This document shows, one piece after another, positions 4,201 through 45,341 of a DNA stretch of 45,341 nucleotides. Position 1 is the stretch's first letter; each line of letters opens with the position of its first letter. Below the pieces are notes generated by a model. That model was not told the DNA's origin. It did no database searches and saw only the letters and a program-made list of their open reading frames with translations. Source of the stretch: Nemertoderma westbladi (taxonomy: Eukaryota > Animalia > Xenacoelomorpha); contig JAUCBJ010005132.1 in assembly GCA_032718475.1 (NCBI GenBank), forward strand, positions 1 through 45,341, read 5' to 3'. Both the position numbers and the translations under genes were made by a program.

Positions 4201-4731
4201 AGTTTATTATATTTTGGCTTATTTTTGAAATTTCCCGCGATTTACATAAAATTAACGGGAAGGTTTGAAAACTTTAAACGCGTTATTCTCAGCATTTACT
4301 TTTTCGTGAAATTTAGAGATAAATGTACCTTTTTCTCGAAAACTGATGGAATTGGCTGAAAGCTTCGCAGCAGGTCTGTCAAAAACTGACACAATTGTGG
4401 AACCTTTAAAAACATATGTTTAAAACAATTATCAAATGTATTTCTAATATAAACTTCAAAAATGCGTCATTTTTTGGTTTTTGGTGCAATTAAAGTGACC
4501 CTCAAACATAGACACAAAAAATAATCTATTTTTTTTAGGTTCCAGGTGTGTTTCGATAGTTACTCCACCCTTCTGGAGATTTCCATGAAATTCAATCTTG
4601 TAGAACCAGCGTAATGGGTACATGAGTTAATAATAAAATGTATGGGGATAGCCTGGGGTACTGACGCGTAATCTTATCAGAGTACTTGATTAGGAATAAG
4701 TTACTAAGGCACTGACTGGGAAGTTACTAAC

Positions 4732-4872
4732 CCTAACTGTAACTTTCCGCCAAGAACCATCTTCCCGTACCAGTAACCTTGCCAACTGGTGCTGTTTCAG
4801 TGTTTTCACCATACTTCGGATTACCATTGATGGCGAGACTGTTTCGTGGATATTCACAGCTCTATGAATTCT
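4732..4872 (-). CDS. GRIN3: C-terminal-tail exon of GluN3-like receptor
   Basis: Acceptor attttttAG, phase 0, begins RIHRAVN, giving SQ|RIHRAVN (GluN3A SQRLHRAIN). Continues IHETVSPSMVIRSMVKTLKQHQLARLLVREDGSWRKVTVR. Best donor is AGG|GTTAGT at 4732, but the 3' boundary is less certain. Confidence 0.82.
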
Positions 4873-5299
4873 CTAAAAAATATCAGACGATTAATAATAT
4901 TATAGACACAGACGAATAAATAGCAAACTTATCAACAATAATGGTCAGATGAATTCAGTGAACATCAGCATACAACATACGAGTATAGTCATAGTGTGAT
5001 CCTCAGTTTAATTAATATAAAAGTGTATTCGAAATTACAAACAATATTCGTTGAAATCTAATTTTATATGTATAAAAAAAAGTTTGTTTAAATATATTAT
5101 ACGGTGTTCAGTAAGCATGCGTTAATATAAAACATTGAGCTGTGACAGGATAGCTGAGCATATTTTAAAAACATATGGTAATTAAGCTTAGCAGCTTAAA
5201 TAAATAAATTGATCCTCCTTCGTCTATAAGCCAAAGGGACTGGTGTAAACCTCTTAATGAACAGAAGTTTTCTCGACTAGTGAGCTCGTGTGACATGTA

Positions 5300-6969: not shown

Positions 6970-7175
6970 CTGACTTATAAATAATAAATAAGTTCGCCAT
7001 TTACTGCGCTCGGGTTGTAGTTTCAACCAGGGCACCAAGTATTTGTAGGCGACGAATTCGGCAATAAGGCACAATATAGCGATGAGGAGACCACATGCGA
7101 AGAATATGTAAATACCGATAGCGTGTTTGAGACCGAGACCCTGCTGTTTGTTTTGGAAAATATTGTCGGCGCACC
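6970..7175 (-). CDS. GRIN3: Exon encoding the conserved S2 Cys, M4 transmembrane helix and proximal C-tail of GluN3-like receptor
   Basis: Acceptor atttactttcAG, donor CAG|GTGAAT, 206 nt (phase 1 to 0). Translates (G)CADNIFQNKQQGLGLKHAIGIYIFFACGLLIAILCLIAEFVAYKYLVPWLKLQPERSKWRTYLLFISQ; compare GluN3A MGIKHFSGLFVLLCIG...GEHIVYRLLLP...WLHTSQ. Confidence 0.92.
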
Positions 7176-7474: not shown

Positions 7475-10400
7475 CTAACCCTTGCTGCACTATCTAACCC
7501 TTGCACTCTCTAACCCCTGTACTCTCTAACCCTTGTACTCTCTAACCCTCGCATTCTCTAACCCTTGTACTCTCTAACCCTTGTACTACCTAACCCTTGC
7601 TCTCTCTAACCCTTGTACTCTCTAACCCTTGTACTCTCTAACCCTTGTACTCTCTAACCCTTGTACTCTCTAACCCGTGCACTCTCTAACCCTTGTACTC
7701 TCTAACCCCTGTACTCTCTAACCCTTGTACTCTCTAACCCTTGTACTGTCTAACCCTTGTACTCTCTAACCCTTGTACTCTCTAACCCTTGTACTCCCTA
7801 ACCCTTGTACTATCTAACCCTTGTACTCTCTAACCCTTGTACTCTCTAACCCCTGTACTCTTTAACCCTTGTACTCTCTAACCCCTGTACTCTCTAACCC
7901 TTGTACTCTCTAACCCTTGTACTGTCTAACCCTTGTACTCTCTAACCCTTGTACTCTCTAACCCTTGTACTCCCTAACCCTTGTACTATCTAACCCTTGT
8001 ACTCTCTAACCCTTGTACTCTCTAACCCCTGTACTCTCTAACCCTTGTACTACATAACCCTTGCTCTCTCTAACCCTTGTACTCTCTAACCCTTGTACTC
8101 TCTAACCCTTGTACTCTCTAACCCTTGTACTCTCTAACCCGTGCACTCTCTAACCCTTGTACTCTCTAACCCCTGTACTCTCTAACCCGTGCACTCTCTA
8201 ACCCTTGTACTCTCTAACCCTTGTACTCTCTAACCCTTGTACTCCCTAACCCTTGTACTATCTAACCCTTGTACTCTCTAACCCTCGCATTCTCTAACCC
8301 TTGTACTCTCTAACCCTTGTACTACCTAACCCTTGCTCTCTCTAACCCTTGTACTCTCTAACCCTTGTACTCTCTAACCCTTGTACTCTCTAGCCCTTGT
8401 ACTCTCTAACCCGTGCACTCTCTAACCCTTGTACTCTCTAACCCCTGTACTCTCTAACCCTTGTACTCTCTAACCCTTGTACTCTCTAACCCTTGTACTC
8501 TCTAACCCTTGTACTCTCTAACCCGTGCACTCTCTAACCCTTGTACTCTCTAACCCCTGTACTCTCTAACCCTTGTACTCTCTAACCCTTGTACTGTCTA
8601 ACCCTTGTACTCTCTAACCCCTGTACTCTCTAACCCTTGTACTCTCTAACCCTTGTACTGTCTAACCCTTGTACTCTCTAACCCTTGTACTCTCTAACCC
8701 TTGTACTCCCTAACCCTTGTACTATCTAACCCTTGTACTCTCTAACCCTTGTACTCTCTAACCCCTGTACTCTCTAACCCTTGTACTCTCTAACCCTTGT
8801 ACTCTTTAACCCTTGTACTCTCTAACCCTTGTACTCTCTAACCCTTGTACTCTCTAACCCTTGTACTCTCTAACCCCTGTACTCTCTAACCCTTGTACTC
8901 TCTAACCCTTGTACTGTCTAACCCTTGTACTCTCTAACCCTTGTACTCTTTAACCCTTGTACTCTCTAACCCTTGTACTCTCTAACCCTTGTACTCTCTA
9001 ACCCTTGTACTCTCTAACCCTTGTACTCTCTAACCCTTGTACTCTCTAACCCTTGCACTCTCTAACCCTTGTACTCTCTAACCCGTGCACTCTCTAACCC
9101 GTGCACTCTCTAACCCTTGCACTCTCTAACCCTTGTACTCTCTAACCCTTGTACTCTCTAACCCTTGTACTCTCTAACCCTTGCACTCTCTAACCCGTGC
9201 ACTCTCTAACCCGTGCACTATCTAACCCGTGCACTCTCTAACCCGTGCACTCTCTAACCCGTGCACTCTCTAACCCTTGCACTCTCTAACCCTTGTACTC
9301 TCTAACCCGTGCACTCTCTAACCCGTGCACTCTCTAACCCTTGCACTCTCTAACCCTTGTACTCTCTAACCCTTGCACTCTCTAACCCTTGTACTCTCTA
9401 ACCCTTGTACTCTCTAACCCTTGTACTCTCTAACCTTTGTACTCTCTAACCCTTGTACTCTCTAACCCTTGTACTCTCTAACCCTTGTACTCTCTAACCC
9501 TTGTACTCTCTAACCCTTGCACTCTCTAACCCTTGCACTCTCTAACCCTTGTACTCTCTAACCCTTGTACTCTCTAACCCTTGTACTCTCTAACCCTTGC
9601 ACTCTCTAACCCTTGTACTCTCTAACCCTTGTACTATCTAACCCTTGTACTCTCTTACCGTTGCACTCTTTAACCCTTGTACTCTCTAACCCTTGTACTC
9701 TCTAACCCTTGTACTCTCTAACCGTTGCACTCTTTAACCCTTGTACTCTCTAACCCTTGTACTCTCTAACCCTTGTACTCTCTAACCCTTGTACTATCTA
9801 ACCCTTGTACTCCCTAACCCTTGTACTCTCTAACCCTTGTACTCTCTAACCCTTGCACTCTCTAACCCTTGTACTCTCTAACCCTTGTACTCTCTAACCC
9901 TTGTACTCTCTAACCCTTGCACTCTCTAACCCTTGTACTCCCTAACCCTCGCATTCTCTAAACCTTGCTCTCTCTAACCCTTGTACTCTCTAACCCTTGT
10001 ATTCTCTAACCCTTGTACTCTCTAACCCTTGTACTCTCTAACCATTGTACTCCCTAACCCTTGTACTCTCTAACCCTTGTACTCTCTAACCCTTGTACTC
10101 TCTAACCCTTGCACTCTCTAACCCTTGTACTCTCTAACCCTTGTACTATCTAACCCTTGTACTCTCTAACCGTTGCACTCTCTAACCGTTGCACTCTTTA
10201 ACCCTTGTACTCTCTAACCCTTGTACTCTCTAACCCTTGTACTCTCTAACCCTTGTACTATCTAACCCTTCTACTCCCTAACCCTTGCTCTCTCTAACCC
10301 TTGTACTCTCTAACCCTTGTACTCCCTAACCCTTGTACTCCCTAACCCTTGTACTCTCTAACCCTTGTACTATCTAACCCTTGTACTCTCTAACCGTTGC

Positions 10401-13400
10401 ACTCTCTAACCGTTGCACTCTTTAACCCTTGTACTCTCTAACCCTTGTACTCTCTAACCCTTGTACTCTCTAACCCTTGTACTATCTAACCCTTGTACTC
10501 CCTAACCCTTGCTCTCTCTAACCCTTGTACTCCCTAACCCTTGTACTCTCTAACCCTTGTACTCTCTAACCCTTGTACTCTCTAACCCTTGTACTCTCTA
10601 ACCCTTGTACTCTCTAACCCTTGTACTCTCTAACCCTTGTACTCTCTAATCCTTGTACTTTCTAACCCTTGTACTCTCTAACCCTTGTACTCTCTAACCC
10701 TTGCTCTCTCTAACCCTTGTACTCTCTAACCCTTGTACTCTCTAACCCTTGTACTCTCTAACCCTTGCACTCTCTAACCCTTGCACTATCTAACCCTTGC
10801 ACTATCTAACCCTTGCTCTCTCTAACCCTTGTACTCTCTAATCCTTGTACTTTCTAACCCTTGTACTCTCTAACCCTTGTACTCTCTAACCCTTGCTCTC
10901 TCTAACCCTTGTACTCTCTAACCCTTGTACTCTCTAACCCCTGTACTCTCTAACCCTTGTACTCTCTAACCCTTGCTCTCTCTAACCCTTGTACTCTCTA
11001 ACCCTTGTACTCTCTAACCCTTGCACTCTCTAACCCTTGCACTATCTAACCCTTGCACTATCTAACCATTGCTCTCTCTAACCCTTGTACTCTCTAACCC
11101 TTGTACTCTCTAACCCTTGTACTTTCTAACCCTTGTACTCTCTAACCCTTGCACTCCCTAACCCTTGTACTCTCCAACCCTTTTACTCTCTAACCCTTGT
11201 ACTCTCTAACCCTTGTAATCTCTAACACCTGTACTCTCTAACCCTTGTACTCTCTAACCCTTGCTCTCTCTAACCCTTGTACTCTCTAACCCTTGTACTC
11301 CCTAACCCTTGTACTCTCTAACTCTTGCTCTCTCTAACCCTTGCACTCTCCTACCCTTATACTCTCTAACCCTTGCACTCTCTAACCCTTGCACTCTCTA
11401 ACCCTTGTACTCTCTAAACCTTGTACTCTCTAACCCTTGTACTCTCTAACCCTTGTACTCTCTAACCCTTGTACTCTCTTCTAACCCTTGTACTCTCTAA
11501 CCCTTGCACTCTCTAACCCTTGTACTCTCTAACCCTTGTACTCTCTAACCCTTGTACTCTCTAACCCTTGTACTCTCTAACCCTTGTACTCTCTAACCCT
11601 TGTACTCCCTAACCATTGTACTCTCTAACCCTTGCTCTCTCTAACCCTTGTACTCTCTAACCCTTGCACTCTCTAACCCTTGTACTCTCTAACCCTTGTA
11701 CTCTCTAACCATTGTACTCTCTAACCCTTGTACTCCCTAACCCTTGTACTCCCTAACCCTTGTACTCCCTAACCCTTGAACTCCCTAACCCTTGTACTCC
11801 CTAACCCTTGTACTCTCCAACCCTTTTACTCTCTAACCCTTGTACTCTCTAACCCTTGTAATCTCTAACCCTTGTACTCTCTAACCCTTGTACTTTCTAA
11901 GCCTTGTACTCTCTAACCCTTGCACTCTCTAACCCTTGTACTCTCTAACCCTTGCTCTCTCTAACCCTTGTACTCTCTAACCCTTGTACTCTCTAACCCT
12001 TGTACTCTCTAACCCTTGCACTCTCTAACCCTTGTACTCTCTAACCCTTGTACTCTCTAACCCTTGTACTCTCTAACCCTTGCACTCTCTAACCCTTGTA
12101 CTCCCTAACCCTCGCATTCTCTAAACCTTGCTCTCTCTAACCCTTGTACTCTCTAACCCTTGTACTCTCTAACCCTTGTACTCTCTAACCCTTGTACTCT
12201 CTAACCATTGTACTCCCTAACCCTTGTACTCTCTAACCCTTGTACTCTCTAACCCCTGTACTCTCTAACCCTTGCACTCTCTAACCCTTGTACTCTCTAA
12301 CCCTTGTACTATCTAACCCTTGTACTCTCTAACCGTTGCACTCTCTAACCGTTGCACTCTTTAACCCTTGTACTCTCTAACCCTTGTACTCTCTAACCCT
12401 TGTACTCTCTAACCCTTGTACTATCTAACCCTTCTACTCCCTAACCCTTGCTCTCTCTAACCCTTGTACTCTCTAACCCTTGTACTCCCTAACCCTTGTA
12501 CTCCCTAACCCTTGTACTCTCTAACCCTTGTACTATCTAACCCTTGTACTCTCTAACCGTTGCACTCTCTAACCGTTGCACTCTTTAACCCTTGTACTCT
12601 CTAACCCTTGTACTCTCTAACCCTTGTACTCTCTAACCCTTGTACTATCTAACCCTTGTACTCCCTAACCCTTGCTCTCTCTAACCCTTGTACTCCCTAA
12701 CCCTTGTACTCTCTAACCCTTGTACTCTCTAACCCTTGTACTCTCTAACCCTTGTACTCTCTAACCCTTGTACTCTCTAACCCTTGTACTCTCTAACTCT
12801 TGTACTCTCTAATCCTTGTACTTTCTAACCCTTGCACTCTCTAACCCTTGTACTCTCTAACCCTTGCTCTCTCTAACCCTTGTACTCTCTAAACATTGTA
12901 CTCTCTAACCCTTGTACTCTCTAACCCTTGTACTCTCTAACCCTTGTACTCTCTAACCCTTGTACTCTCTAACCCTTGCACTCTCTAACCCTTGCACTAT
13001 CTAACCCTTGCACTATCTAACCCTTGCTCTATCTAACCCTTGTACTCTCTAATCCTTGTACTTTCTAACCCTTGTACTCTCTAACCCTTGTACTCTCTAA
13101 CCCTTGCTCTCTCTAACCCTTGTACTCTCTAACCCTTGTACTCTCTAACCCCTGTACTCTCTAACCCTTGTACTCTCTAACCCTTGCTCTCTCTAACCCT
13201 TGTACTCTCTAACCCTTGTACTCTCTAACCCTTGTACTCTCTAACCCTTGCACTCTCTAACCCTTGCACTATCTAACCCTTGCACTATCTAACCATTGCT
13301 CTCTCTAACCCTTGTACTCTCTAACCCTTGTACTCTCTAACCCTTGTACTTTCTAACCCTTGTACTCTCTAACCCTTGCACTCCCTAACCCTTGTACTCT

Positions 13401-16400
13401 CCAACCCTTTTACTCTCTAACCCTTGTACTCTCTAACCCTTGTAATCTCTAACACCTGTACTCTCTAACCCTTGTACTCTCTAACCCTTGCTCTCTCTAA
13501 CCCTTGTACTCTCTAACCCTTGTACTCCCTAAACCTTGTACTCTCTAACTCTTGCTCTCTCTAACCCTTGCACTCTCCTACCCTTATACTCTCTAACCCT
13601 TGCACTCTCTAACCCTTGCACTCTCTAACCCTTGTACTCTCTAAACCTTGTACTCTCTAACCCTTGTACTCTCTAACCCTTGTACTCTCTAACCCTTGTA
13701 CTCTCTTCTAACCCTTGTACTCTCTAACCCTTGCACTCTCTAACCCTTGTACTCTCTAACCCTTGTACTCTCTAACCCTTGTACTCTCTAACCCTTGTAC
13801 TCTCTAACCCTTGTACTCTCTAACCCTTGTACTCCCTAACCATTGTACTCTCTAACCCTTGCTCTCTCTAACCCTTGTACTCTCTAACCCTTGCACTCTC
13901 TAACCCTTGTACTCTCTAACCCTTGTACTCTCTAACCATTGTACTCTCTAACCCTTGTACTCCCTAACCCTTGTACTCCCTAACCCTTGTACTCCCTAAC
14001 CCTTGTACTCCCTAACCCTTGTACTCCCTAACCCTTGTACTCTCCAACCATTTTACTCTCTAACCCTTGTACTCTCTAACCCTTGTAATCTCTAACCCTT
14101 GTACTCTCTAACCCTTGTACTTTCTAACCCTTGTACTCTCTAACCCTTGCACTCTCTAACCCTTGTACTCTCTAACCCTTGCTCTCTCTAACCCTTGTAC
14201 TCTCTAACCCTTGTACTCTCTAACCCTTGTACTCTCTAACCCTTGTACTCTCTAACCCTTGTACTCTCTAACCCTTGTACTCTCTAACCCATGTACTCTC
14301 TAACCCTTGTACTCTCTAACCCTTGTACTCCCTAACCCTTGTACTCTCTAACCCTTGCACTCTCTAACCCTTGTACTCTCTAACCCTTGCTCTCTCTAAC
14401 CCTTGTACTCTCTAACCCTTGTACTTTCTAACCATTGTACTCTCTAACCCTTGCACTCTCTAAACCTTGTACTCTCTAACCCTTGCACTCTCTAACCCTT
14501 GTACTCCCTAACCCTCGCATTCTCTAACCCTTGTACTCTCTAACCCTTGCTCTCTCTAACCCTTGTACTCTCTAACCCTTGTACTCTCTAACCCTTGTAC
14601 TTTCTAACCCTTGTACTCTCTAACCCTTGTACTCTCTAACCCTTGTACTTTCTAACCCTTGTACTCTCTAACCCTTGCACTCTCTAACCCTTGTACTCTC
14701 TAACCCTTGCTCTCTCTAACCCTTGTACTCTCTAACCCTTGTACTCCCTAACCCTTGTACTCTCTAACTCTTGCTCTCTCTAACCCTTGCACTCTCCTAC
14801 CCTTATACTCTCTAACCCTTGCACTCTCTAACCCTTGCACTCTCTAAACCTTGTACTCTCTAACCCTTGTACTCTCTAACCCTTGTACTCTCTAACCCTT
14901 GTACTCTCTTCTAACCCTTGTACTCTCTAACCCTTGCACTCTCTAACCCTTGTACTCTCTAACCCTTGTACTCTCTAACCCTTGTACTCTCTAACCCTTG
15001 TACTCTCTAACCCTTGTACTCTCTAACCCTTGTACTCTCTAACCCTTGTACTCCCTAACCCTTGTACTCTCTAACCCTTGCTCTCTCTAACCCTTGCACT
15101 CTTTAACCCTTGTACTCTCTAACCCTTGCACTCTCTAACCCTTGCACTTTCTAACCCTTGTACTCACTAACCCTTGTACTCTCTAACCCTTGTACTCTCT
15201 AACCCTTGTACTCTCTAACCATTGTACTCTCTAACCCTTGTACTCTCTAACCCTTGTACTCTCTAACCCTTGTACTCTCTAACCATTGTACTCTCTAACC
15301 CTTGTACTCTCTAACCCTTGTACTCTCTAACCCTTGTACTCTCTAACCCTTGTACTCTCTAACCCTTGTACTCTCTAACCATTGTACTCTCTAACCCTTG
15401 TACTCTCTAACCCTTGTACTCTCTAACCTTTGTACTCTCTAACCCTTGCACTCTCTAACCCTTGCACTTTCTAACCCTTGTACTCACTAACCCTTGTACT
15501 CTCTAACCCTTGTACTCTCTAACCCTTGTACTCTCTAACCATTGTACTCTCTAACCCTTGTACTCTCTAACCCTTGTACTCTCTAACCCTTGTACTCTCT
15601 AACCCTTGTACTCTCTAACCCTTGTACTCTCTAACCCTTGCACTCTCTAACCCTTGTACTCTCTAACCCTTGTACTCTCTAACCCTTGTACTCTCTAACC
15701 CTTGTACTCTCTAACCCTTGCACTCTCTAACCCTTGTACTCTCTAACCCTTGTACTCTCTAACCCTTGTACTCTCTAACCCTTGTACTCTCTAACCCTTG
15801 TACTCTCTAACCCCTGTACTCTCTAAACCTTGTACTTTCTAACCCTTGTACTCTCTAACCCTGCTCTCTCTAACCCTTGTACTCTCTAACCCTTGTACTC
15901 TCTAACCCTTGTACTCTCTAACCCTTGTACTCTCTAACCCCTGTACTCTCTAAACCTTGTACTTTCTAACCCTTGTACTCTCTAACCTTGCTCTCTCTAA
16001 CCCTTGTACTCTCTAACCCTTGTACTCTCTAACCCTTGTACTCTCTAACCCTTGTACTCTCTAACCCTTGTACTCTCTAACCCTTGTACTCTCTAACCCT
16101 CGCATTCTCTAACCCTTGTACTCTCTAACCCTTGTACTCTCTAACCCTTGTACTCTCTAACCCTTGTACTCACTAACCCTTGCACTATCTAACCCTTGCA
16201 CTATCTAACCCTTGCTCTCTCTAACCCTTGTACACTCTAACCCTTGTACTCTCTAACCCTTGTACACTCTAACCCTTGTACTCTCTAACCCTTGTACTCT
16301 CTAACCCTTGTAATATCTAACCCCTGTACTCTCTAACCCTTGTACTCTCTAACCCTTGCTCTCTCTCACCCTTGTACTCTCTAACCCTTGTACTCTCCAA

Positions 16401-19400
16401 CCCTTGTACTCTCTAACCCTTGTACTCTCTAACCCTTGTACTCTCTAACCCTTGTAATCTCTAACCCCTGTACTCTCTAACCATTGTACTCTCTAACCCT
16501 TGTACTCTCTAACCCTTGTAATATCTAACCCCTGTACTCTCTAACCCTTGTACTCTCTAACCCTTGCTCTCACTCACCCTTGTACTCTCTAACCCTTGTA
16601 CTCTCCAACCCTTGTACTCTCTAACCCTTGTACTCTCTAACCCTTGTACTCTCTAACCCTTGTAATCTCTAACCCCTGTACTCTCTAACCATTGTACTCT
16701 CTAACCCTTGTAATATCTAACCCCTGTACTCTCTAACCCTTGTACTCTCTAACCCTTGTATTCTCTAACCCTTGTACTCTCTAACCCTTGTACTCTCTAA
16801 CCCTTGTACTCTCTAACCCTTGTACTCTCTAACCCTTGCTCTCTCTAACCATTGTACTCTCTAACCCTTGTACTCTCTAACCCTTGTACTCTCTAACCCT
16901 TGTATTCTCTAACCCTTGTACTCTCTAACCCTTGTACTCTCTAACCCTTGTACTCTCTAACCCTTGTACTCTCTAACCCTTGTACTCTCTAACCATTGTA
17001 CTCTCTAACCCTTGTACTCTCTAACCCTTGTACTCTCTAACCCTTGTACTCTCTAACCCTTGTACTCTCTAACCCTTGTACTCTCTAACCCTTGTAATCT
17101 CTAACCCCTGTACTCTCTAACCATTGTACTCTCTAACCCTTGTACTCTCTAACCCTTGTAATATCTAACCCCTGTACTCTCTAACCCTTGTACTCTCTAA
17201 CCCTTGCTCTCTCTCACCCTTGTACTCTCTAACCCTTGTACTCTCCAACCCTTGTACTCTCTAACCCTTGTACTCTCTAACCCTTGTACTCTCTAACCCT
17301 TGTAATCTCTAACCCCTGTACTCTCTAACCATTGTACTCTCTAACCCTTGTAATATCTAACCCCTGTACTCTCCAACCCTTGTACTCTCTAACCCTTGTA
17401 CTCTCTAACCCTTGTATTCTCTAACCCTTGTACTCTCTAACCCTTGTACTCTCTAACCCTTGTAATCTCTAACCCCTGTACTCTCTAACCCTTGTACTCT
17501 CTAACCCTTGTAATATCTAACCCCTGTACTCTCTAACACTTGTACTCTCTAACCCTTGTACTCTCTAACCCTCGCATTCTCTAACCCTTGTACTCTCTAA
17601 CCCTTGTACTCTCCAACCCTTGTACTCTCTAACCCTTGTACTCTCTAACCCTCGCATTCTCTAACCCTTGTACTCTCTAACCCTTGTACTCTCCAACCCT
17701 TGTACTCTCTAACCCTTGTACTCTCCAACCCTTGTACTCTCTAACCCTTGTACTCTCTAACCCTTGTACTCTCTAACCCTCGCATTCTCTAACCCTTGTA
17801 CTCTCTAACCCTTGTACTCTCCAACCCTTGTACTCTCTAACCCTTGTACTCTCCAACCCTTGTACTCTCTAACCCTTGTACTCTCTAACCCTTGTACTCT
17901 CTAACCCTTGTAATCTCTAACCCTTGCACTCTCTAACCCTTACTCTCTCTAACCCTTGTACTCTCTAACCATTGTACTCTCTAACCCTTGCTATCTCTAA
18001 CCCTTGTACTCTCTAACCCTTGTACTCTCTAACCCTTGTACTCTATAACCCTTGTACTCTCTAACCATTGTACTCTCTAACCCTTGTACTCTCTAACCCT
18101 TGTACTCTCTAACCCTTGTACTCTCTAACCATTGTACTCTCTAACCCTTGTACTCTCTAACCCTTGCTCTCTCTAACCCTTGTACTCTCTAACCCTTGTA
18201 TTCTCTAACCCTTGTACTCTCTAACCCTTGTATTCTCTAACCCTTGCACTCTCTAAACCTTGCTCTCTCTAACCCTTGCTCTCTCTAACCCTTGTACTCT
18301 CTAACCCTTGTATTCTCTAACCCTTGTACTCTCTAACCCTTGTATTCTCTAACCCTTGTACTCTCTAACCCTTGTACTCTCTAACCCTTGTAATCTCTAA
18401 CCCCTGTACTCTCTAACCCTTGTACTCTCTAACCCTTGTAATATCTAACCCCTGTACTCTCTAACACTTGTACTCTCTAACCCTTGTACTCTCTAACCCT
18501 TGTACTCTCTAACCCTTGTAATCTCTAACCCCTGTACTCTCTAACCATTGTACTCTCTAACCCTTGCTATCTCTAACCCTTGTACTCTCTAACCCTTGTA
18601 CTTTCTAACCATTGTACTCTCTAACCCTTGTACTCTCTAACCCTTGTACTCTCTAACCCTTGTACTCTCTAACCCTTGTACTCTCTAACCCTTGCACTCT
18701 CTAACCCTTGTACTCTCTAACCCTTGTACTCTCTAACCCTTGTACTCTCTAACCCTTGTACTCCCTAACCCTTGTACTCTCTAACCCTTGTACTCTCTAA
18801 CCCTTGTACTATCTAACCCTTGTACTCCCTAACCCTTGCTCTCTCTAACCCTTGTACTCCCTAACCCTTGTACTCTCTAACCCTTGTACTCTCTAACCCT
18901 TGTACTCTCTAACCCTTGTACTCTCTAACCCTTGTACTCTCTAACCCTTGTACTCTCTAACCCTTGTACTCTCTAACCCTTGTATTCTCTAACCCTTGTA
19001 CTCTCTAACCCTTGTACTCTCTAACCCTTGTATTCTCTAACCCTTGTACTCTCTAACCCTTGTACTCTCTAACCCTTGTATTCTCTAACCCTTGTACTCT
19101 CTAACCCTTGTAATCTCTAACCCCTGTACTCTCTAACCCTTGTACTCTCTAACCCTTGTAATATCTAACCCCTGTACTCTCTAACCCTTGTACTCTCTAA
19201 CCCTTGCACTCTCTAACCCTTGTACTCTCTAACCCTTGTACTCTCTAACCCTTGTACTCTCTAACCCTTGTACTCTCTAACCCTTGTACTCTCTAACCCT
19301 TGTACTCCCTAACCCTTGTACTCTCTAACCCTTGTACTATCTAACCCTTGTACTCCCTAACCCTTGTACTCCCTAACCCTTGCACTCTCTAACCCTTGTA

Positions 19401-34400: not shown

Positions 34401-36533
34401 CTAACCCTTGTACTCTCTAACCGTTGTACTCTCTAACCCTTGTACTCTCTAACCCTTGTACTCTCTAACCCTTGTACTCCCTAACCCTTGCATTCTCTAA
34501 CCCTTGTACTATCTAACCCTTATACTATCTAACCCTCGCATTCTCTAACCTGTGTACTATCTAACCCTTGTACTCCCTAACCCCTGTACTCTCTAACCCT
34601 TGTACTCTCTAACCCTTGTACTTTCTAACCCTTGTACTCTCTAACCCTTGCACTCTCTAAACCTTGTACTCTCTAACCGTTGTACTCTCTAACCATTGTA
34701 CTCTCTAACCCTTGTACTCTCTAACCCTTGTACTCTCTAACCCTTGTAATCTCTAACCCCTGTACTCTCTAACCCTTGTACTCTCTAACTCTCGCACTAT
34801 CTAACCCTTGCTCTCTCTAACCCTTGTACTCTCTAACCCTTGTACTCTCTAACCCTTGCTCTCTCTAACCCTTGTACTCTCTAACCCTTGTACTCTCTAA
34901 CCCTTGTACTCTCTAACCCTTGTACTCTCTAACCCTTGTACTCTCTAACCCTTGTACTCTCTAACCCTTGTACTCTCTAACCCTTGCACTCTCTAACCGT
35001 TGCACTATCTAACCCTTGCATTCTCTAACCCTTGTACTCTCTAACCCTTGTACTATCTAACCCTTGTACTCCCTAACCCCTGTACTCTCTAACCCTTGTA
35101 TTCTCTAACTCTTGTACTCTCTAACCCTTGTACTCTCTAACCCTTGTACTCTCTAACCCTTGTACTCTCTAACCCTTGCATTCTCTAACCCTTGTACTAT
35201 CTAACACTTATACTATCTAACCCTCGCATTCTCTAACCTTTGTACTATCTAACCCTTGTACTCTCTAACCCTTGTACTCTCTAACCCTTGTACTCTCTAA
35301 CCCTTGTACTCTCTAACCCTTGTGCTCTCTAACCCTTGTACTCTCTAACCCTTGTACTCTCTAACCCTTGTACTCTCTAACCCTTGTACTCTCTAACCCT
35401 TGTACTCTCTAACCCTTGTACTCTCTAACCCTTGCACTCTCTAAACCTTGTACTCTCTAACCCTTGCACTCTCTAACCATTGTACTCTCTAACCCTTGTA
35501 CTCTCTAACCCTTGTACTCTCTAACCCTTGTACTCTCTAACCCTTGTACTCTCTAACCCTTGCACTCTCTAACCCTTGCACTATCTAAACCTTGTACTCT
35601 CTAACCCTTGTACTCTCTAACCCTTGTACTCTCTAACCTTTGTATTCTCTAACCCTTGTACTCTCTAACCCTTGTACTATCTAACCCTTGTACTCCCTAA
35701 CCCCTGTACTCTCTAACCCTTGTATTCTCTAACTCTTGTACTCTCTAACCCTTGTACTCTCTAACCCTTGTACTCTCTAACCCTTGTACTCTCTAACCCT
35801 TGTACTCTCTAACCCTTGTATTCTCTAACCTTTGTACTCTCTAACCCTTGTACTCTCTAACCCTTGTACTCTCTAACCCTTGTACTCTCTAACCCTTGTA
35901 CTCTCTAACCCTTGCACTCTCTAACCCTTGCACTCTCTAACCCTTGTACTCTCTAACCCTTGCTCTCTCTAACCCTTGCACTCTCTAACCCTTGCACTAT
36001 CTAAACCTTGCACTCTCTAACCCTTGTACTATCTAACCCTTGTACTCCCTAACCCCTGTACTCTCTAACCCTTGTATTCTCTAACCCTTGTACTCTCTAA
36101 CCCTTGTACTCTCTAACCCTTGTACTCTCTAACCCTTGTACTCTCTAACCGTTGCACTATCTAACCCTTGCACTATCTAAACCTTGCACTCTCTAACCCT
36201 TGTACTCTCTAACCCTTGTACTCTCTAACCCTTGTACTCTCTAACCCTTGTACTCTCTAACCCTTGTACTCTCTAACCCTTGTACTCTCTAACCCTTGTA
36301 CTCTCTAACCCTTGTACTCTCTAACCCTCGTACTCCCTAACCCTTGCATTCTCTAACCCTTGTACTATCTAACCCTTATACTATCTAACCCTCGCATTCT
36401 CTAACCTGTGTACTATCTAACCCTTGTACTCCCTAACCCCTGTACTCTCTAACCCTTGTACTCTCTAACCCTTGTACTCTCTAACCCTTGTACTCCCTAA
36501 CACTTGCATTCTCTAATCCTTGCACAAACTAAC
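7475..36533. repeat. Intronic 16-bp satellite (CTAACCCTTGTACTCT)n, ~29 kb, ~1800 units
   Basis: Directly visible 16-bp periodicity with point variants and rare indels. Ends exactly at the splice donor of exon 36650-36534. Confidence 0.99.
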
Positions 36534-36650
36534 CTTTGGGCGAGGAGCTGCGGAACCATTTATCCTGCAACTGTTCGAATTCAACACCGCTCGTATAATT
36601 ATGTATCAGTTTGGAGAGAACGTCCTTTAGGTTGGAACCTTTTGGAACGC
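36534..36650 (-). CDS. GRIN3: Internal exon of GluN3-like receptor (end of S2 domain)
   Basis: Acceptor ttttgattttAG, donor AAAG|GTTAGT, 117 nt (phase 1 to 1), in frame with both neighbours. Translates (G)VPKGSNLKDVLSKLIHNYTSGVEFEQLQDKWFRSSSPK(G), a typical iGluR 'P.GS.L...S..I.......L..KW' segment. Confidence 0.92.
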
Positions 36651-36678
36651 CTAAAATCAAAACAAAATCATTAACAAT

Positions 36679-36921
36679 GGACGGACGGACGGACGGACGG
36701 ACGGACGGACGGACGGACGGACGGACGGACGGACGGACGGACGGACGGACGGACGGACGGACGGACGGACGGACGGACGGACGGACGGACGGACGGACGG
36801 ACGGACGGACGGACGGACGGACGGACGGACGGACGGACGGACGGACGGACGGACGGACGGACGGACGGACGGACGGACGGACGGACGGACGGACGGACGG
36901 ACGGACGGACGGACGGACGGA
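36679..36921. repeat. Perfect (GGAC)n microsatellite, ~60 units
   Basis: Directly visible. Ends ~28 nt from the acceptor of exon 36650. Confidence 0.99.
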
Positions 36922-37188
36922 TGTGGATAAATGTGAAATAATGTAGGGATGGGTGGCGGTGATTTTTCTGGTAATTATTACAAAATATATTAAAGAAAAC
37001 CACCGATAATTCAGCCCACCTCAACGTAACCCGACTTGTTGGTTGCCAAGCTCCCTATGATAAAGACTAACTAGATGCCCTTCTTTCTCTACTACTACTA
37101 CTACTATGATCGGCATGCTGCATTGCAGCTGCATTTTTAAGAATGCTGTGCCGGCTTGACGACAAAACTGCGCCGCCACAACTCCCTA

Positions 37189-37971
37189 TCACACAAGACA
37201 TGTCATGGGCTGTCCACCATGCTTATTCACTCCATGAGGCTGCCAAAGTACAAGATTATGCACTGGCTGGTCCTCACGGCGAAAGCAATGTCCTGCAAAG
37301 CGGAGGCGATTTTGTTCTAGTGTCAAGCTTGGGGGAACCAATGAGACACCTCCAATGTTATATAGTGTCTGGTTGGAGATGTGTGCATTGTACTTGACAC
37401 AATGAACCCGGCGTAGCATTCTTGTGAATGTGCCATCCAGAGATTTGGTGTCCTCAGCAGTTAGAGCCCAGCATGGACTCCCATAGAGGAGTACTGGAAC
37501 TACTGCTGCTCTAAATAACCGGACCTTAAGTTTCCGATTAATTCTCGGTGACTTCCAAATCCTGGAAAGCCTATTCAAGGCTGCCCATGCCTTTCCCTTA
37601 CGTATTCGAAGGTCCTCACCTGACTTCTGGATCCATGATCCCAGGTAACAGAAGTCATCCACATGCTCAAGCATACCATCTTTGGAGCGTATGCTCATCC
37701 GATCAGAGACTTGCTGAGGACTTTCAAAGTTAACTGTCAAAATTTTGATCTTTCTGGAGTTAATAAAAAGACCAACACTAGAAGCAGCATGTTCTAATGA
37801 GCTGAGGAGCCGTTGGGCTCCCTCTAGTGATTCTGAGAGTACTTCTAAGTCATCAGCAAAGTCTAGATCAGTTAGGTACTTGGCAGGATTTCCTCGACTT
37901 CTGGAGCCAGTAGGTGGAGTTATCATCACCCCATCATCATTGTGATGATCTAAGGACATGCGTAGAACATA
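37189..37971 (-). pseudogene. C-terminal part of LINE reverse transcriptase (motif 5 onward)
   Basis: YVLRMSLD...YLTDLDFADDL...DFCYLGSWI...LFRAAVVPVLLYGS..W...RLRFAGHCFR. Upstream RT motifs are absent. Confidence 0.88.
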
Positions 37972-38373
37972 GCATCATTGATGGCATCAACCTGTTGGTT
38001 TATTAGCTCCTGGAGATTAACAGAGTACTGCCTATTCAGGGACCTAGATGCAGCCTTAACTGCATTCTTGGCCGCTGTAGTCTGTTTGAGTCGGGACTCT
38101 TTCTGCGCCTTATAAAGGTCATTTCGGCACTTCTGAATTTTGTTGTCAGTCCAGGGGGCCCTTTTCCTGTTTCGAGGGTATACGGGAACTGTATCTGCAG
38201 CTGCTAACTTAACTGCTTCTGTGAAGGCAGTATAGCCCTCACAGTGATCTGCCGCCTCAGAGGCAAGAACCTCATACCTGTTGCTCAGCTGTAGTGTGAA
38301 GCTGGATCTCACCCTTGGCTGTTGCAACAGAGAGGACCAGTCATGCCGCGGCAAGGCAGATTTCGTTGTTCTG

Positions 38374-39150
38374 CTAGCACGCAGACTTAAGTCTTACCTT
38401 GGCCACAATAAGGCGGTGATCACTGGAGAAGGGTCGAAGTGTAAATGCATTACAGTCTTGTATAGAGCTCCTGTATTTCCTATGAAACAGAATATGGTCT
38501 ATCTGGGACTTGTGACCACTGGGTCCACTATGAGTCCATACCTTTCCAGTTCGCATCTTGAACTGGGTTCCAGCCGAAAACAATCCATTTCCAGAGATAA
38601 AATCCTGAAGAATGACGGAATTTCGGTTAACACTATTGCTATTAACCCAGGGCGATGTAGGTGATTGATGCAGACTTGCATTAAAGTCTCCCAGGAATGT
38701 TAAGAATGCATGCTGATCCACTCCATCAGTAGCTGCTTGTAGATTATGGTAGAAATTTTCCACCTCCTCTACAGGGGCAACACTAGTTGGAGAGTAGCAC
38801 ACAATCAGAACCACCTTAGGAAACTTCTTAGCCAGTCTTCCAGAACATGAGAAGTGACAACGGATGATGCGGTTAGAGATTTGGTCTATTTTGTCCAATG
38901 CTGCATGTGCAGTTGGATTCATCAAAAGACCAATTCCACCATTGCCACTATCATCTGCTGAAGCGAGGGCGAGTCGCCAACCGCACCCCATGTCCTTAAT
39001 CAGAACCTCATCAGTCTGTCCAGTCTGCATTCGGTGCTCTTGAACACCCACTGCGCTAATTAAGAGAAAGCTTATCTGCCAAGGCAGTCAGCTCACCTTG
39101 TCGCATTGGGGACCCGAGTGTTAGGGTGTTTACTGAGGCTAGTCTAGTGA
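38374..39150 (-). pseudogene. Apurinic-like (APE) endonuclease domain of the LINE, disrupted
   Basis: ASVNTLTL ... stop ... GVQEHR ... GDFNA ... IDH ... SDH. A stop at ~39056 and a frameshift at ~38375 break the frame. Confidence 0.85.
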
Positions 39151-40338
39151 CTTGCCTCAGATTCACCAATGACTTTGTTGGTCGGGGTGGAACATGAGAG
39201 TAGCCTCCAACTCCAGAATCCCTCTCCCCCTCACAATCTGGCCTCCCTGGTGACCCAGGGTTTGAGCCAGAAAGGTCATCAGGAAAGGGACTCAAAGAAT
39301 TGTTGGCTGCCCTCTCTCCAGAGGGGGGGGGGGGGGGGGGGGTGAGACAGGCAGCCGGTCAGGAGATAACTGACGCCTGTGAGACCGATTGTGTCCGGTA
39401 ATTCCACTGGCCTCTAGTGGCCGGACCTCCGCATTACTAATGTAATCCATAGTGGGGGTTGGGGGGTGCTTTTTCGCCGAGTCAGCTCTCGGAGCAAATA
39501 CCACACCCTGGTTTGGCATTCGACAGGTTGGGTGTCGCAGTCAGATATGAGGCCCATCACCCATATCTACTCTGGCGCACATGACCCACCATTGGCTGTG
39601 CAGCTCATCTGCTGGGTCATTCCCTTTACCCCTGCTGCCAGGTGCAGGTCGCAGTGAAGTGCACTCAGAGTGGACATTGGAACACTCTACTCCTGACCAG
39701 CCATTGGTAGATCACCATCTGCCTGGCCAGGCCATATACCCCTGCAGCCAAGTATATGGGCCCTTAATCCAGGACCCAGGGCGTCCTTATCCCAGAACGA
39801 AGGGGATCCTAGTTACAGGACCAGATTTGCCCTAGTAAGAGGGTCTATGCAGCTACAGGTGGCACCTCCTCTATGCTGCATGGAGGTGGCAAGTTTTCCT
39901 GATCATTGACCTAGAATACCTGACCTGACCTGACCTGAATCTTCTTTCTGTACCCCTTTGGCCTGCAACACAGTCAGTGGGTCGTCTCTTGGCGCAGCAG
40001 TTACCTATTATTCCCAATCTTGCTCCCTTCAAAACTCCTCGCAATCAGGGCTTAAAAAGTAGCAGACGGATATACAATGAACCCTAGAATCATATGACAC
40101 AACTTAGAATAATGTTTGGTTAAGAAAAAAGTTAGAATAATGGAAAGCGGACGTCCCTAATGGGAAACCTAATGAGTGTGGGATTCCACGTGTTCCCATT
40201 ACAGCCTCCCTCCCCATAATCAGTAATAGGATGGCTCAACAGTCGTGAAACTTACAACATTTAAAAGACTGTTTATTTATTATGTATTAGATGTATTTTA
40301 TGTTTTGTGATTGTTCTTCACTTTTTTGTAGCACAACA

Positions 40339-41033
40339 GGTTCAGTTTGACTTACCCAATGGTTCAGTTTGATTCACCTAATGGTTCAGTTTTACTCTCA
40401 CAATGGTTCAGTTTCACTCACACATTGGTTCAGTTTGACTCACACATTGGTTCGGTTTCACTCAACTAATGGTTCAGTTTGAATCACACCTTGGTTCAGT
40501 TTACTAACCCAATGGTTCAGTTTGACTCACACATTGGTTCAGTTTGACTCACACATTGGTACAGTTTGACTCACACATTGGTTCAGTTTCAATCAACTAA
40601 TAGTTCATTTTGAATCACACGGTTCAGTTTGACTTACACATTGGTTCAGTTTGACTCACACATTGGTTCAGTTTGACTCACACATTAGTTCAGTTTGACT
40701 CAACTAATGGTTGAGTTTGACTCCCACAGTGGTTCAGTTTGACTCACACAATGGTTCAGTTTGACTCATACATTGGTTCAGTTTGACTCACCTATTGGTT
40801 CAGTTTGACTCACACATTGGTTCAGTTTGACTCACCCATTGGTTCAGTTTAACTCACACATTGGTTAAGTTTGACTCACCTAATGCTTCCGTTTGACTCA
40901 ACTAATGGTTCAGTTTGACTTACCTATTGGTTAAGTTTGACTTGAACATTGGTTATGTTTGACTCACACATTCGTTCAGTTTGACTCAGCCATTGGTTCA
41001 GTTTGACTCACCCATTGGTTCAGTTTGACTCAC
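40339..41033. repeat. 22-bp minisatellite (TGGTTCAGTTTGACTCACACAT)n, ~31 diverged units
   Basis: Visible periodicity. On the gene strand the unit is GTGAGTCAAACTGAACCAATG(T/G), starting with the donor motif. Confidence 0.97.
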
Positions 41034-44000
41034 CTATCCCGTAACCCTCACCACCGAACGGCGCACCAACCGAACGTAGAACGCTGACTCACCTATCCCG
41101 TAACCCTCACCACCGAACGGCGCACCAACCGAACGTAGAACGCTGACTCACCTATCCCGTAACCCTCACCACCGAACGGCGCACCAACCGAACGTAGAAC
41201 GCTGACTCACCTATCCCGTAACCCTCACCACCGAACGGCGCACCAACCGAACGTAGAACGCTGACTCACCTATCCCGTAACCCTCACCACCGAACGGCGC
41301 ACCAACCGAACGTAGAACGCTGACTCACCTATCCCGTAACCCTCACCACCGAACGGCGCACCAACCGAACGTAGAACGCTGACTCACCTATCCCGTAACC
41401 CTCACCACCGAACGGCGCACCAACCGAACGTAGAACGCTGACTCACCTATCCCGTAACCCTCACCACCGAACGGCGCACCAACCGAACGTAGAACGCTGA
41501 CTCACCTATCCCGTAACCCTCACCACCGAACGGCGCACCAACCGAACGTAGAACGCTGACTCACCTATCCCGTAACCCTCACCACCGAACGGCGCACCAA
41601 CCGAACGTAGAACGCTGACTCACCTATCCCGTAACCCTCACCACCGAACGGCGCACCAACCGAACGTAGAACGCTGACTCACCTATCCCGTAACCCTCAC
41701 CACCGAACGGCGCACCAACCGAACGTAGAACGCTGACTCACCTATCCCGTAACCCTCACCACCGAACGGCGCACCAACCGAACGTAGAACGCTGACTCAC
41801 CTATCCCGTAACCCTCACCACCGAACGGCGCACCAACCGAACGTAGAACGCTGACTCACCTATCCCGTAACCCTCACCACCGAACGGCGCACCAACCGAA
41901 CGTAGAACGCTGACTCACCTATCCCGTAACCCTCACCACCGAACGGCGCACCAACCGAACGTAGAACGCTGACTCACCTATCCCGTAACCCTCACCACCG
42001 AACGGCGCACCAACCGAACGTAGAACGCTGACTCACCTATCCCGTAACCCTCACCACCGAACGGCGCACCAACCGAACGTAGAACGCTGACTCACCTATC
42101 CCGTAACCCTCACCACCGAACGGCGCACCAACCGAACGTAGAACGCTGACTCACCTATCCCGTAACCCTCACCACCGAACGGCGCACCAACCGAACGTAG
42201 AACGCTGACTCACCTATCCCGTAACCCTCACCACCGAACGGCGCACCAACCGAACGTAGAACGCTGACTCACCTATCCCGTAACCCTCACCACCGAACGG
42301 CGCACCAACCGAACGTAGAACGCTGACTCACCTATCCCGTAACCCTCACCACCGAACGGCGCACCAACCGAACGTAGAACGCTGACTCACCTATCCCGTA
42401 ACCCTCACCACCGAACGGCGCACCAACCGAACGTAGAACGCTGACTCACCTATCCCGTAACCCTCACCACCGAACGGCGCACCAACCGAACGTAGAACGC
42501 TGACTCACCTATCCCGTAACCCTCACCACCGAACGGCGCACCAACCGAACGTAGAACGCTGACTCACCTATCCCGTAACCCTCACCACCGAACGGCGCAC
42601 CAACCGAACGTAGAACGCTGACTCACCTATCCCGTAACCCTCACCACCGAACGGCGCACCAACCGAACGTAGAACGCTGACTCACCTATCCCGTAACCCT
42701 CACCACCGAACGGCGCACCAACCGAACGTAGAACGCTGACTCACCTATCCCGTAACCCTCACCACCGAACGGCGCACCAACCGAACGTAGAACGCTGACT
42801 CACCTATCCCGTAACCCTCACCACCGAACGGCGCACCAACCGAACGTAGAACGCTGACTCACCTATCCCGTAACCCTCACCACCGAACGGCGCACCAACC
42901 GAACGTAGAACGCTGACTCACCTATCCCGTAACCCTCACCACCGAACGGCGCACCAACCGAACGTAGAACGCTGACTCACCTATCCCGTAACCCTCACCA
43001 CCGAACGGCGCACCAACCGAACGTAGAACGCTGACTCACCTATCCCGTAACCCTCACCACCGAACGGCGCACCAACCGAACGTAGAACGCTGACTCACCT
43101 ATCCCGTAACCCTCACCACCGAAGATCCCGTAACCCTCACCACCGAACGGCGCACCAACCGAACGTAGAACGCTGACTCACCTATCCCGTAACCCTCACC
43201 ACCGAACGGCGCACCAACCGAACGTAGAACGCTGACTCACCTATCCCGTAACCCTCACCACCGAACGGCGCACCAACCGAACGTAGAACGCTGACTCACC
43301 TATCCCGTAACCCTCACCACCGAACGGCGCACCAACCGAACGTAGAACGCTGACTCACCTATCCCGTAACCCTCACCACCGAACGGCGCACCAACCGAAC
43401 GTAGAACGCTGACTCACCTATCCCGTAACCCTCACCACCGAACGGCGCACCAACCGAACGTAGAACGCTGACTCACCTATCCCGTAACCCTCACCACCGA
43501 ACGGCGCACCAACCGAACGTAGAACGCTGACTCACCTATCCCGTAACCCTCACCACCGAACGGCGCACCAACCGAACGTAGAACGCTGACTCACCTATCC
43601 CGTAACCCTCACCACCGAACGGCGCACCAACCGAACGTAGAACGCTGACTCACCTATCCCGTAACCCTCACCACCGAACGGCGCACCAACCGAACGTAGA
43701 ACGCTGACTCACCTATCCCGTAACCCTCACCACCGAACGGCGCACCAACCGAACGTAGAACGCTGACTCACCTATCCCGTAACCCTCACCACCGAACGGC
43801 GCACCAACCGAACGTAGAACGCTGACTCACCTATCCCGTAACCCTCACCACCGAACGGCGCACCAACCGAACGTAGAACGCTGACTCACCTATCCCGTAA
43901 CCCTCACCACCGAACGGCGCACCAACCGAACGTAGAACGCTGACTCACCTATCCCGTAACCCTCACCACCGAACGGCGCACCAACCGAACGTAGAACGCT

Positions 44001-44353
44001 GACTCACCTATCCCGTAACCCTCACCACCGAACGGCGCACCAACCGAACGTAGAACGCTGACTCACCTATCCCGTAACCCTCACCACCGAACGGCGCACC
44101 AACCGAACGTAGAACGCTGACTCACCTATCCCGTAACCCTCACCACCGAACGGCGCACCAACCGAACGTAGAACGCTGACTCACCTATCCCGTAACCCTC
44201 ACCACCGAACGGCGCACCAACCGAACGTAGAACGCTGACTCACCTATCCCGTAACCCTCACCACCGAACGGCGCACCAACCGAACGTAGAACGCTGACTC
44301 ACCTATCCCGTAACCCTCACCACCGAACGGCGCACCAACCGAACGTAGAACGC
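41026..44353. repeat. 59-bp tandem array, 56 essentially identical units, made of exon 3' end plus splice donor
   Basis: Unit TGACTCACCTATCCCGTAACCCTCACCACCGAACGGCGCACCAACCGAACGTAGAACGC. 35 units, one unit with a 24-bp internal duplication (43091-43173), then 20 units. The last unit overlaps the real exon. Confidence 0.99.
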
Positions 44354-44439
44354 ACTCGGGATCTGTGGCCACCTCGTGCGTGATTATTGGATTATCGTAT
44401 ATAAACATATCCAACGTGCTTGGATGGCTGTCGTTGCCC
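44303..44439 (-). CDS. GRIN3: Internal exon of an NMDA-type glutamate receptor, GluN3-like (S2 ligand-binding lobe)
   Basis: Acceptor tgtgtttccAG, donor G|GTGAGT, 137 nt (phase 2 to 1). Translates GNDSHPSTLDMFIYDNPIITHEVATDPECVLRSVGAPFGGEGYGI(G), matching from memory GluN3 [38 protein letters not shown]. Confidence 0.92.
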
Positions 44440-44566
44440 CTGGAAACACAAGACAAGGTATCCAATTACTCCTACATTTATAACAACAGTCTGAATAATG
44501 CATCTCACTCAATTGTTCGAAATCTCCCTCTCCTTTGTCCCACAGCTTTAAGAATCATTGAACATA

Positions 44567-44588
44567 CCCCCCCCCCCCCCCCCCCCCC
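44567..44588. repeat. Poly-C homopolymer (~22 nt)
   Basis: Directly visible. Confidence 0.9.
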
Positions 44589-44737
44589 ATCTTTTAATGA
44601 AGAAACCATCATTTTGGTTTATATAATGCGGAATTTTGAATTCGGAGTCTGTAAAATTTTTTAACGACTCCATCATTTATTTGTAATTATTTACAATTAT
44701 AATTAGACAAAATAAAATAGAAAATGTTAAGGCCTTT

Positions 44738-45341
44738 GCTAATGAATAATGTGGTACTCGCTAGAAACCATGGCTGAGTGCTTAATGAATAATGTGGCAC
44801 TCACTAGAAACCATGGCTGAGTGCTTAATGAATAATGTGGTACTCGATAGAAACCATGGCTGAGTGCTTAATGAATAATGTGGTACTCACTAGAAACCAT
44901 GGCTGAGTGCTTAATGAATAATGTGGTACTCACTAGAAACCATGGCTGAGTGCTTAATGAATAATGTGGTACTCACTAGAAACCATGGCTGAGTGCTTAC
45001 TGAATAATGTGGTACTCACTAGAAACCATGGCTGAGTGCTTATTGAATAATGTGGTACTCACTAGAAACCATGGCTGAGTGCTTAATGAATAATGTGGTA
45101 CTCACTAGAAACCATGGCTGAGTGCTTAATGAATAATGTGGTACTCACTAGAAACCATGGCTGAGTGCTTAATGAATAATGAGATACTCACTAGAAACCA
45201 TGGCTGAGTGCTTAATGAATAATGTGGTACTCACTAGAAACCATGGCTGAGTGCTTAATGAATAATGAGGTACTCACTAGAAACCATGGCTGAGTGCTTA
45301 ATGAATAATGTGGTACTCACTAGAAACCATGGCTGAGTGCT
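44738..45341. repeat. 43-bp minisatellite (GCTTAATGAATAATGTGGTACTCACTAGAAACCATGGCTGAGT)n, ~14 units, running off the window
   Basis: 43-bp spacing of CTAGAAACCA (44761, 44804, ...). The gene-strand unit contains GTGAGTA. Confidence 0.98.

What the first reader, a model, noticed from the sequence alone, without database searches (positions are those of the whole stretch)
7475..45341. Splice-donor-anchored satellites: unrelated tandem arrays originating at 5' splice sites of one gene
Seen: three arrays of different sequence and period start at a 5' splice donor of the GluN3-like gene and contain the donor in register. These are the 16-mer (CAAAG|GTTAG vs unit CAAGG GTTAG), the 59-mer (GATAG|GTGAGTCA) and the 22-mer (GTGAGTCAAACTGAACC). 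A fourth array (43-mer) also carries GTGAGTA on the gene strand. All extend away from the exon into the intron, leaving the coding sequence intact. Inference: a recurrent mutational process focused on donors, such as transcription/R-loop- or U1-associated breaks repaired by microhomology-mediated or rolling-circle synthesis, seeds satellites and inflates introns. Selection would then retain only events that keep the proximal donor usable. I do not know of a named system for this, but cannot rule out prior description.
Basis: partly seen in the sequence, partly recalled or inferred. Interest (0 to 1): 0.88.

Follow-up and report, generated by a model that had tools for sequence, protein, structure and literature searches.

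The report
Giant splice-donor "mirage" repeats, GluN3 gene
In an animal's glutamate-receptor gene, short pieces spanning the ends of two predicted exons are copied head-to-tail into the following introns, one about 1,800 times (29 kb); this is a known and likely harmless kind of repeat ("mirage"), here unusually large, and a special process aimed at splice donors is not shown.

Summary
The arrays are real and the gene is GluN3-like, but three arrays sit at two donors, not three. The 59-mer (51 exon + 8 intron bases, 56 copies) and the 22-mer (about -5..+17) are successive duplications of one junction. The 16-mer (-5..+11, about 1,815 copies, 29 kb) spans the next donor. Two other donors and all four acceptors are not spanned by an array. 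The 43-mer begins outside the window, so its anchor is untested. The 59-mer and 16-mer also occur in a second, independent sample, and the 16-mer behaves as a single-locus array, so it most likely arose in place. Units that span an exon-intron boundary are a named class: amphioxus "mirage" minisatellites, with human cases in F7, CBS, 6-16, LMNB2 and PDGF, where the first donor is normally used. Here every later donor would give a premature stop. Most likely the arrays began as single local duplications, grew by block duplication, and survive because the first donor and the coding sequence stay intact. A donor-targeting process could not be tested (no genome, no RNA). Local odds against chance are 1e-3 to 4e-6, but the window was picked after the fact. 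Notable for size and for a repeat hit at one donor.

The parts
44740..45341 (-). 43-mer array, 14 copies visible, runs off the window; carries GTGAGTA on the gene strand; anchor at a donor not shown
44303..44439 (-). Exon A of GluN3-like gene (S2 ligand-binding segment, ends at GYGIG), 137 bases, phase 2 in, phase 1 out
   Evidence: (GluN3A E 7e-7)
44295..44302 (-). Predicted working donor A (first intron base 44302, TAG|GTGAGTCA)
   Evidence: no RNA
41026..44353 (-). 59-mer mirage: last 51 bases of exon A + first 8 of the intron; 56 donor copies, 54 identical 59-base spacings and one of 83 (24-base internal duplication)
   Evidence: repeat junction also in sample S2
40339..41038 (-). 22-mer mirage (about -5..+17 of the same junction), 31 units in register, more diverged (83% matches); starts at the last 59-mer donor copy (41033)
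37100..40000 (-). Broken non-LTR retroelement (endonuclease + reverse transcriptase remnants) in intron A-B; limits approximate
36679..36921 (.). Perfect (GGAC)61 microsatellite ending 28 bases before acceptor B; not at a donor
36534..36650 (-). Exon B (GVPKGS...KWF...PK), 117 bases, phase 1 at both ends; donor B first intron base 36533 (AAG|GTTAGT)
   Evidence: exon-donor-array junction on one contig of sample S2
7475..36538 (-). 16-mer mirage (-5..+11 of donor B), about 1,815 units, 904 identical to consensus, 29 kb, 99% of intron B-C; exact internal block duplications up to 188 units
6970..7175 (-). Exon C (pre-M4/M4), donor C at 6969 with no array
4732..4872 (-). Probable exon D (RIHRAVN...), donor at about 4731 or 4737 uncertain, no array
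   Evidence: P0009, E 3e-4 against the 7.5 kb left part

Best explanation
Three tandem arrays have units that span a predicted exon-intron donor junction of a GluN3-like gene, which makes them 'mirage'-type minisatellites; each likely began as one local duplication across the junction, grew by repeated block duplication, and likely persists because the first donor is used and the coding sequence is untouched. Steps: (1) Birth, inferred: a 16-, 22- or 59-base tandem duplication straddles the junction, so the copy lies in the intron. (2) Growth, shown for the 16-mer as exact duplicated blocks of up to 188 units; the cause (unequal exchange, conversion or slippage) is inferred. (3) Survival, inferred from F7 experiments: the most upstream donor wins, and any later donor here would give a premature stop. 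(4) Decay, shown: decoy donors are weaker in the more diverged arrays. Junction A was hit twice, first by the 22-mer and later by the 59-mer (order inferred from divergence). The clustering at donors is most likely small ancestral introns, seeding at an existing array's edge and after-the-fact choice of window, with at most a modest bias.
For: Units span the junction in register. Gene model is continuous with GluN3-like proteins. The 59-mer repeat junction is in sample S2 of another study (X2 depth 254 vs flank 9.67; X3 contig goes back 59). One X2 contig runs from exon B across donor B into the 16-mer; the distal flank is seen in X1 and X2; none of 5 loose-end rows points to another locus. 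Summed depth over flank depth is about 10,900 (X1) and 8,300-12,100 (X2) against 14,374 simulated for this one array. Longest exact block 188 units with 109 non-consensus units, against at most 3 in 5 shuffles. 59-mer donors 2, 3, 4, 5 and 56 all give a stop at residue 64, and read-through of donor B stops at once. Decoys scoring at least as high as the real donor on a crude U1 match: 0 of 1,814 (16-mer), 4 of 30 (22-mer), 55 of 55 (59-mer). Class described in PMC3087553, PMC3902484, PMC1557585.
Against: Under uniform placement within de-arrayed introns, the chance that the 16-mer and 22-mer both span a donor is 2.5e-4 to 1.1e-3, and all three 4e-6 to 8e-5; survival alone does not favour junction-spanning over purely intronic duplications. 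A fourth array also carries a donor-like motif (1.5% by shuffle). No array spans any of four acceptors, a donor-side asymmetry on very small numbers. In 6-16 and CBS some pseudo-donors are used (PMC1557585 introduction), so 'harmless' is not guaranteed. Depth ratios from contigs are rough: X3, the same sample as X2, gives a 16-mer depth about 55 times lower, and 454 records were not shown.
Confidence: 0.7

Rival explanations
1. Donor-biased birth: transcription-, R-loop- or spliceosome-linked nicks near 5' splice sites would seed duplications across donors much more often than elsewhere.
For: 3 of the 3 minisatellites inside the gene whose start is visible span a donor; one junction was hit twice; local odds 1e-3 to 4e-6; the 16-mer and 59-mer are G-rich on the sense strand (skew 0.71 and 0.43); the 59-mer breaks at +8, the edge of U1 pairing (recalled consensus).
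Against: Only two donors, non-independent events, window chosen for the pattern; 2 of 4 donors have no array; the (GGAC)n array is not at a donor; 22-mer and 43-mer are not G-rich; no exact microhomology at the 59-mer junction; G4 enrichment at splice sites is reported as restricted to mammals and birds (10.1101/700575, abstract); acceptor-side mirages exist (PMC3087553).
Confidence: 0.17
2. Growth or tolerance bias: birth is random, but arrays carrying U1-like sites and no poly(A) signal would be tolerated at very large size because they keep long introns from premature cleavage.
For: No AATAAA or ATTAAA in 33.6 kb of arrays on the sense strand, against 8 in 1.8 kb of other intron sequence; 1,728 of 1,814 16-mer units keep the GT; U1 protection of long introns is established (PMC5499120, search listing only).
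Against: Four unit types are four observations, and the units are less AT-rich than the introns; the largest array has the weakest decoys (0 of 1,814 match the real donor's score).
Confidence: 0.08
3. The 16-mer is a dispersed or telomere-derived satellite that landed beside the donor, the match being chance.
For: The unit contains telomere-like AGGGTTA; the first unit matches consensus at only 11 of 16 bases.
Against: No other flanks among listed loose ends and depth fits one locus; register runs into the exon (24 of 32 over two units, 0 of about 11,400 elsewhere).
Confidence: 0.04
4. Assembly artefact, above all the perfect 59-mer.
For: 54 identical spacings; copy number in the window (56) differs from rough depth ratios (221 in X1, 26 in X2).
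Against: High-depth repeat contigs in two samples of two studies; 94 unit variants and nested blocks in the 16-mer. Only the lengths are uncertain.
Confidence: 0.01

Closest known systems
Amphioxus 'mirage' minisatellites (Adh3, globins BflGb6/BflGb9, troponin C, PGBD5). Seen: passages of PMC3087553 and PMC3902484; the original Canestro et al. 2002 paper was not held and is known here only through these citations
   Same: Tandem units spanning an exon-intron boundary; splice signals repeated; unit sizes within the reported 10-160 bases; edge units escape homogenisation; mechanism of birth called unclear
   Different: Far larger here (about 1,815 copies and 29 kb against 3-6 copies for BflGb6); donor side only in this window; one junction amplified twice with different units; splicing not checked here
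Human donor-spanning VNTRs: F7 intron 7 (37-mer, 5-9 copies), CBS intron 13, 6-16, LMNB2, PDGF. Seen: abstract, introduction and discussion of PMC1557585
   Same: First unit holds the exon end and the real donor, followed by identical pseudo-donors; F7 has 4 exon + 33 intron bases, like the 22-mer and 16-mer here
   Different: 5-25 copies in humans against 31, 56 and about 1,815 here; three arrays in one gene; first-donor use is shown for F7 and only inferred here
Internal tandem repeats at exon-intron boundaries that create new introns or splice forms (PMC2812944, passages)
   Same: Repeats at boundaries that could open new splice choices
   Different: Here later donors give premature stops, so no new protein form or intron gain is indicated

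Membership tests
Mirage minisatellite | Repeat unit spans an exon-intron boundary | tested here: met
   59-mer -51..+8, 22-mer about -5..+17, 16-mer -5..+11; boundaries from homology and phase, not RNA. For the 22-mer and 16-mer only 3-5 exon bases are involved
Mirage minisatellite | Head-to-tail array of minisatellite-size units | tested here: met
Mirage minisatellite | Splice signal repeated in many copies | tested here: met
   GT kept in 55 of 55, 21 of 30 and 1,728 of 1,814 downstream units
Mirage minisatellite | Length instability between haplotypes | tested here: inconclusive
   59-mer depth ratios 221 (X1) and 26 (X2) against 56 copies in the window; an 80-base higher-order 16-mer repeat in X1 is absent from the window; contig depth is not a copy number
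Mirage minisatellite | Normal splicing preserved | not testable with these tools
   needs RNA reads; none could be laid
Mirage minisatellite (43-mer) | First unit spans the upstream donor | not testable with these tools
   array start lies beyond 45341; consensus in the needed phase gives a stop
Dispersed or telomere-derived satellite (16-mer) | Present at several unrelated loci | tested here: not met
   only the two known flanks among 5 loose-end rows; depth at or below the single-locus simulation; 454 records not shown
Donor-targeted seeding process (proposed) | Genome-wide excess at donors over null and acceptors | not testable with these tools
   no genome held

The most novel reading that the evidence does not exclude
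5' splice sites are hotspots for the birth of tandem duplications in this lineage, hit repeatedly (twice at one junction here), and such mirages grow into multi-kilobase satellites that make up most of some introns, so splice-site position itself steers where satellites arise and introns inflate.
Probability: 0.2. Interest if true: 0.65.

Novelty: new member of a known kind. Interest (0 to 1): 0.3.

Why it matters
As it stands it is an extreme example of a known repeat class: a 310-base intron turned into 29 kb by copies of its own donor region, and one junction amplified twice. It is a good natural test of first-come donor choice against 55 identical competitors. If a genome-wide donor excess were shown, it would link splicing or transcription to where satellites are born and answer the open question of how mirages arise.

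Tried and rejected
No whole genome is held, so the genome-wide test was not run. No RNA holder listed. Pfam gave no hit for the three exon peptides; exon B alone found no glutamate receptor in PDB; two word-based protein searches found nothing; the HMMER search found 12 hits, of which I used 5 plus two cluster members. A metagenome scan for related loci found none, so orthologous introns were not compared. Run X5 covered neither exon A nor exon B. The exon join was one base off and was redone; the register test used a variant unit by mistake and was redone. No hidden periodicity at donor C or three acceptors. The bacterial promoter scan is irrelevant to this animal sequence. Look-ups of earlier findings in this genome were empty, and the look-up by sequence gave an unrelated note. 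Paper searches listed no genome-wide test of junction-spanning arrays; only titles and abstract starts were seen for most, and subscription journals are not covered. Rejected: in-frame isoform ladder (59 is not a multiple of 3 and a stop precedes donor 2); the idea that the 43-mer consensus is the end of the upstream exon.

Full report
What is there. The window holds the 3' part of an animal gene on the minus strand. Exon A (44439-44303) matches GluN3A best among solved structures (E 7e-7; GluN2 at E 0.15 or worse). The closest named proteins are echinoderm and hemichordate 'NMDA 3A/3B-like' receptors at about 60% identity over exon A. Exons A, B (36650-36534) and C (7175-6970) join without a stop and align to P0006 over 140 columns at E 2e-31, with no gap at A|B and a 3-residue gap near B|C. 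A probable exon D starts at 4872. The boundaries rest on homology, phase and canonical signals; no RNA could be laid. I did not identify the organism.

The arrays. Tandem Repeats Finder gives a 16-mer (7475-36522), a (GGAC)n run, a 22-mer, a 59-mer and a 43-mer inside the gene. The 59-mer is the last 51 bases of exon A plus 8 intron bases: 56 donor copies, 54 identical spacings and one with a 24-base internal duplication. The 22-mer begins at the last of these copies. Its units fall into a whole number when read from about -5 to +17, and about a quarter keep the exon-end TAG. So junction A was amplified twice; the more diverged 22-mer is likely the older. The 16-mer starts 5 bases inside exon B. 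Its first two units match the consensus dimer at 24 of 32 bases, which 0 of about 11,400 non-array positions do. It has about 1,815 units, 904 identical to consensus, and makes intron B-C 29,358 bases instead of 310. The 43-mer carries GTGAGTA (1.5% of shuffles), but its start is off the window and its consensus would give a stop if joined to exon A. Donors C and D have no array, and no acceptor is spanned: array ends lie 300, 28 and 299 bases from acceptors A, B and C.

Real and local. Three of six listed runs hold the locus, in two studies; X1 may be the source of the window. I laid four of the six. The 59-mer appears as a high-depth repeat contig in X1 (2,013 against 9.12 for the flank) and in sample S2 (X2: 254 against 9.67; X3: a contig that goes back 59). 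One X2 contig runs from exon B across donor B into the 16-mer, the distal flank is seen in X1 and X2, and none of the 5 loose-end rows points to another locus (454 records not shown). A graph simulation of this single array predicts a peak of 14,374 times single-copy depth; observed ratios are about 10,900 (X1) and 8,300-12,100 (X2). X3 is far lower, so these figures are rough. They exclude an artefact and argue against a genome-wide satellite family.

How it likely works. Birth: one tandem duplication across the junction puts the copy in the intron and leaves the coding sequence whole (inferred). The 59-mer junction has no exact microhomology; a 4-base match is 2 bases out of register. Growth: the 16-mer contains exact duplicated blocks up to 188 units, 109 of them non-consensus, against at most 3 in 5 shuffles; this fits unequal exchange or conversion. 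X1 holds an 80-base higher-order repeat of the donor-proximal units that the window lacks. Survival: 59-mer donors 2, 3, 4, 5 and 56 all give a stop at residue 64, and read-through of donor B stops at once, so only the first donor gives protein. In human F7 the most upstream of several identical donors is the one used (PMC1557585; abstract, introduction, discussion read); tethering of the upstream donor to the polymerase offers a reason (PMC8316553, abstract only). Decay: on a crude U1-match score of my own, decoys as strong as the real donor number 55 of 55 (59-mer), 4 of 30 (22-mer) and 0 of 1,814 (16-mer); drift alone would give this.

Is it more than chance? Placing each unit uniformly in its de-arrayed intron, the 16-mer and 22-mer both span a donor with probability 2.5e-4 to 1.1e-3, and all three 4e-6 to 8e-5. 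That counts against pure chance. But the events are at two donors, two of them at one junction, two other donors are bare, and the window was chosen for this pattern. The sense strand is G-rich in the 16-mer and 59-mer but not in the 22-mer or 43-mer, and G-quadruplex enrichment at splice sites is reported only for mammals and birds (10.1101/700575, abstract). Unchecked notes from other genomes in this scan disagree: no excess in one, a modest excess in another. The decisive genome-wide count could not be run.

What is known. [quoted passage not shown] The original paper was not held. Human donor-side cases with 5-25 copies are listed in PMC1557585. PMC2812944 and PMC10078293 were seen as passages only; no supplements were read. 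A word search of this scan gave 14 similar findings in at least 11 genomes, 8 shown; that lead is what pointed me to the name. The three arrays meet the defining sequence features of the class; preserved splicing is untested.

Verdict. A new member of a known kind, extreme in size and with a double hit at one junction. Interest 0.3.

Noticed in passing
window 37100-40000, minus strand: Broken non-LTR retroelement in intron A-B, same sense as the gene, with endonuclease and reverse-transcriptase remnants and a short (TAG)n tail.
   Followed up: partly
window 5200-6192, plus strand: Open frame 5758-6192 that resembles the 3' end of a non-LTR retroelement (recalled resemblance; no Pfam hit), in intron C-D.
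   Followed up: partly
window 36679-36921: Perfect (GGAC)61 microsatellite ending 28 bases before acceptor B; the X2 contig diverges from the window just beside it.
   Followed up: partly
window 830-2470 and 3150-4220: GC-rich element with inverted arms and internal 30-, 31- and 42-base repeats; then 146/304-base repeats with (GACA)n runs.
   Followed up: no
window 36445-36521: Run X1 holds an 80-base higher-order repeat of the donor-proximal 16-mer units at depth 128.5, absent from the window, suggesting recent growth next to the donor on another haplotype.
   Followed up: partly
16-mer and 59-mer units; window 4726-4737: Both units contain telomere-like AGGGTTA, and the probable donor D has two GTTAG motifs 6 bases apart.
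   Followed up: no
proteins P0001, P0002, P0004: These predicted relatives break off after GIGVxKG, a few codons later than donor A here, which may mark a shifted intron position.
   Followed up: no
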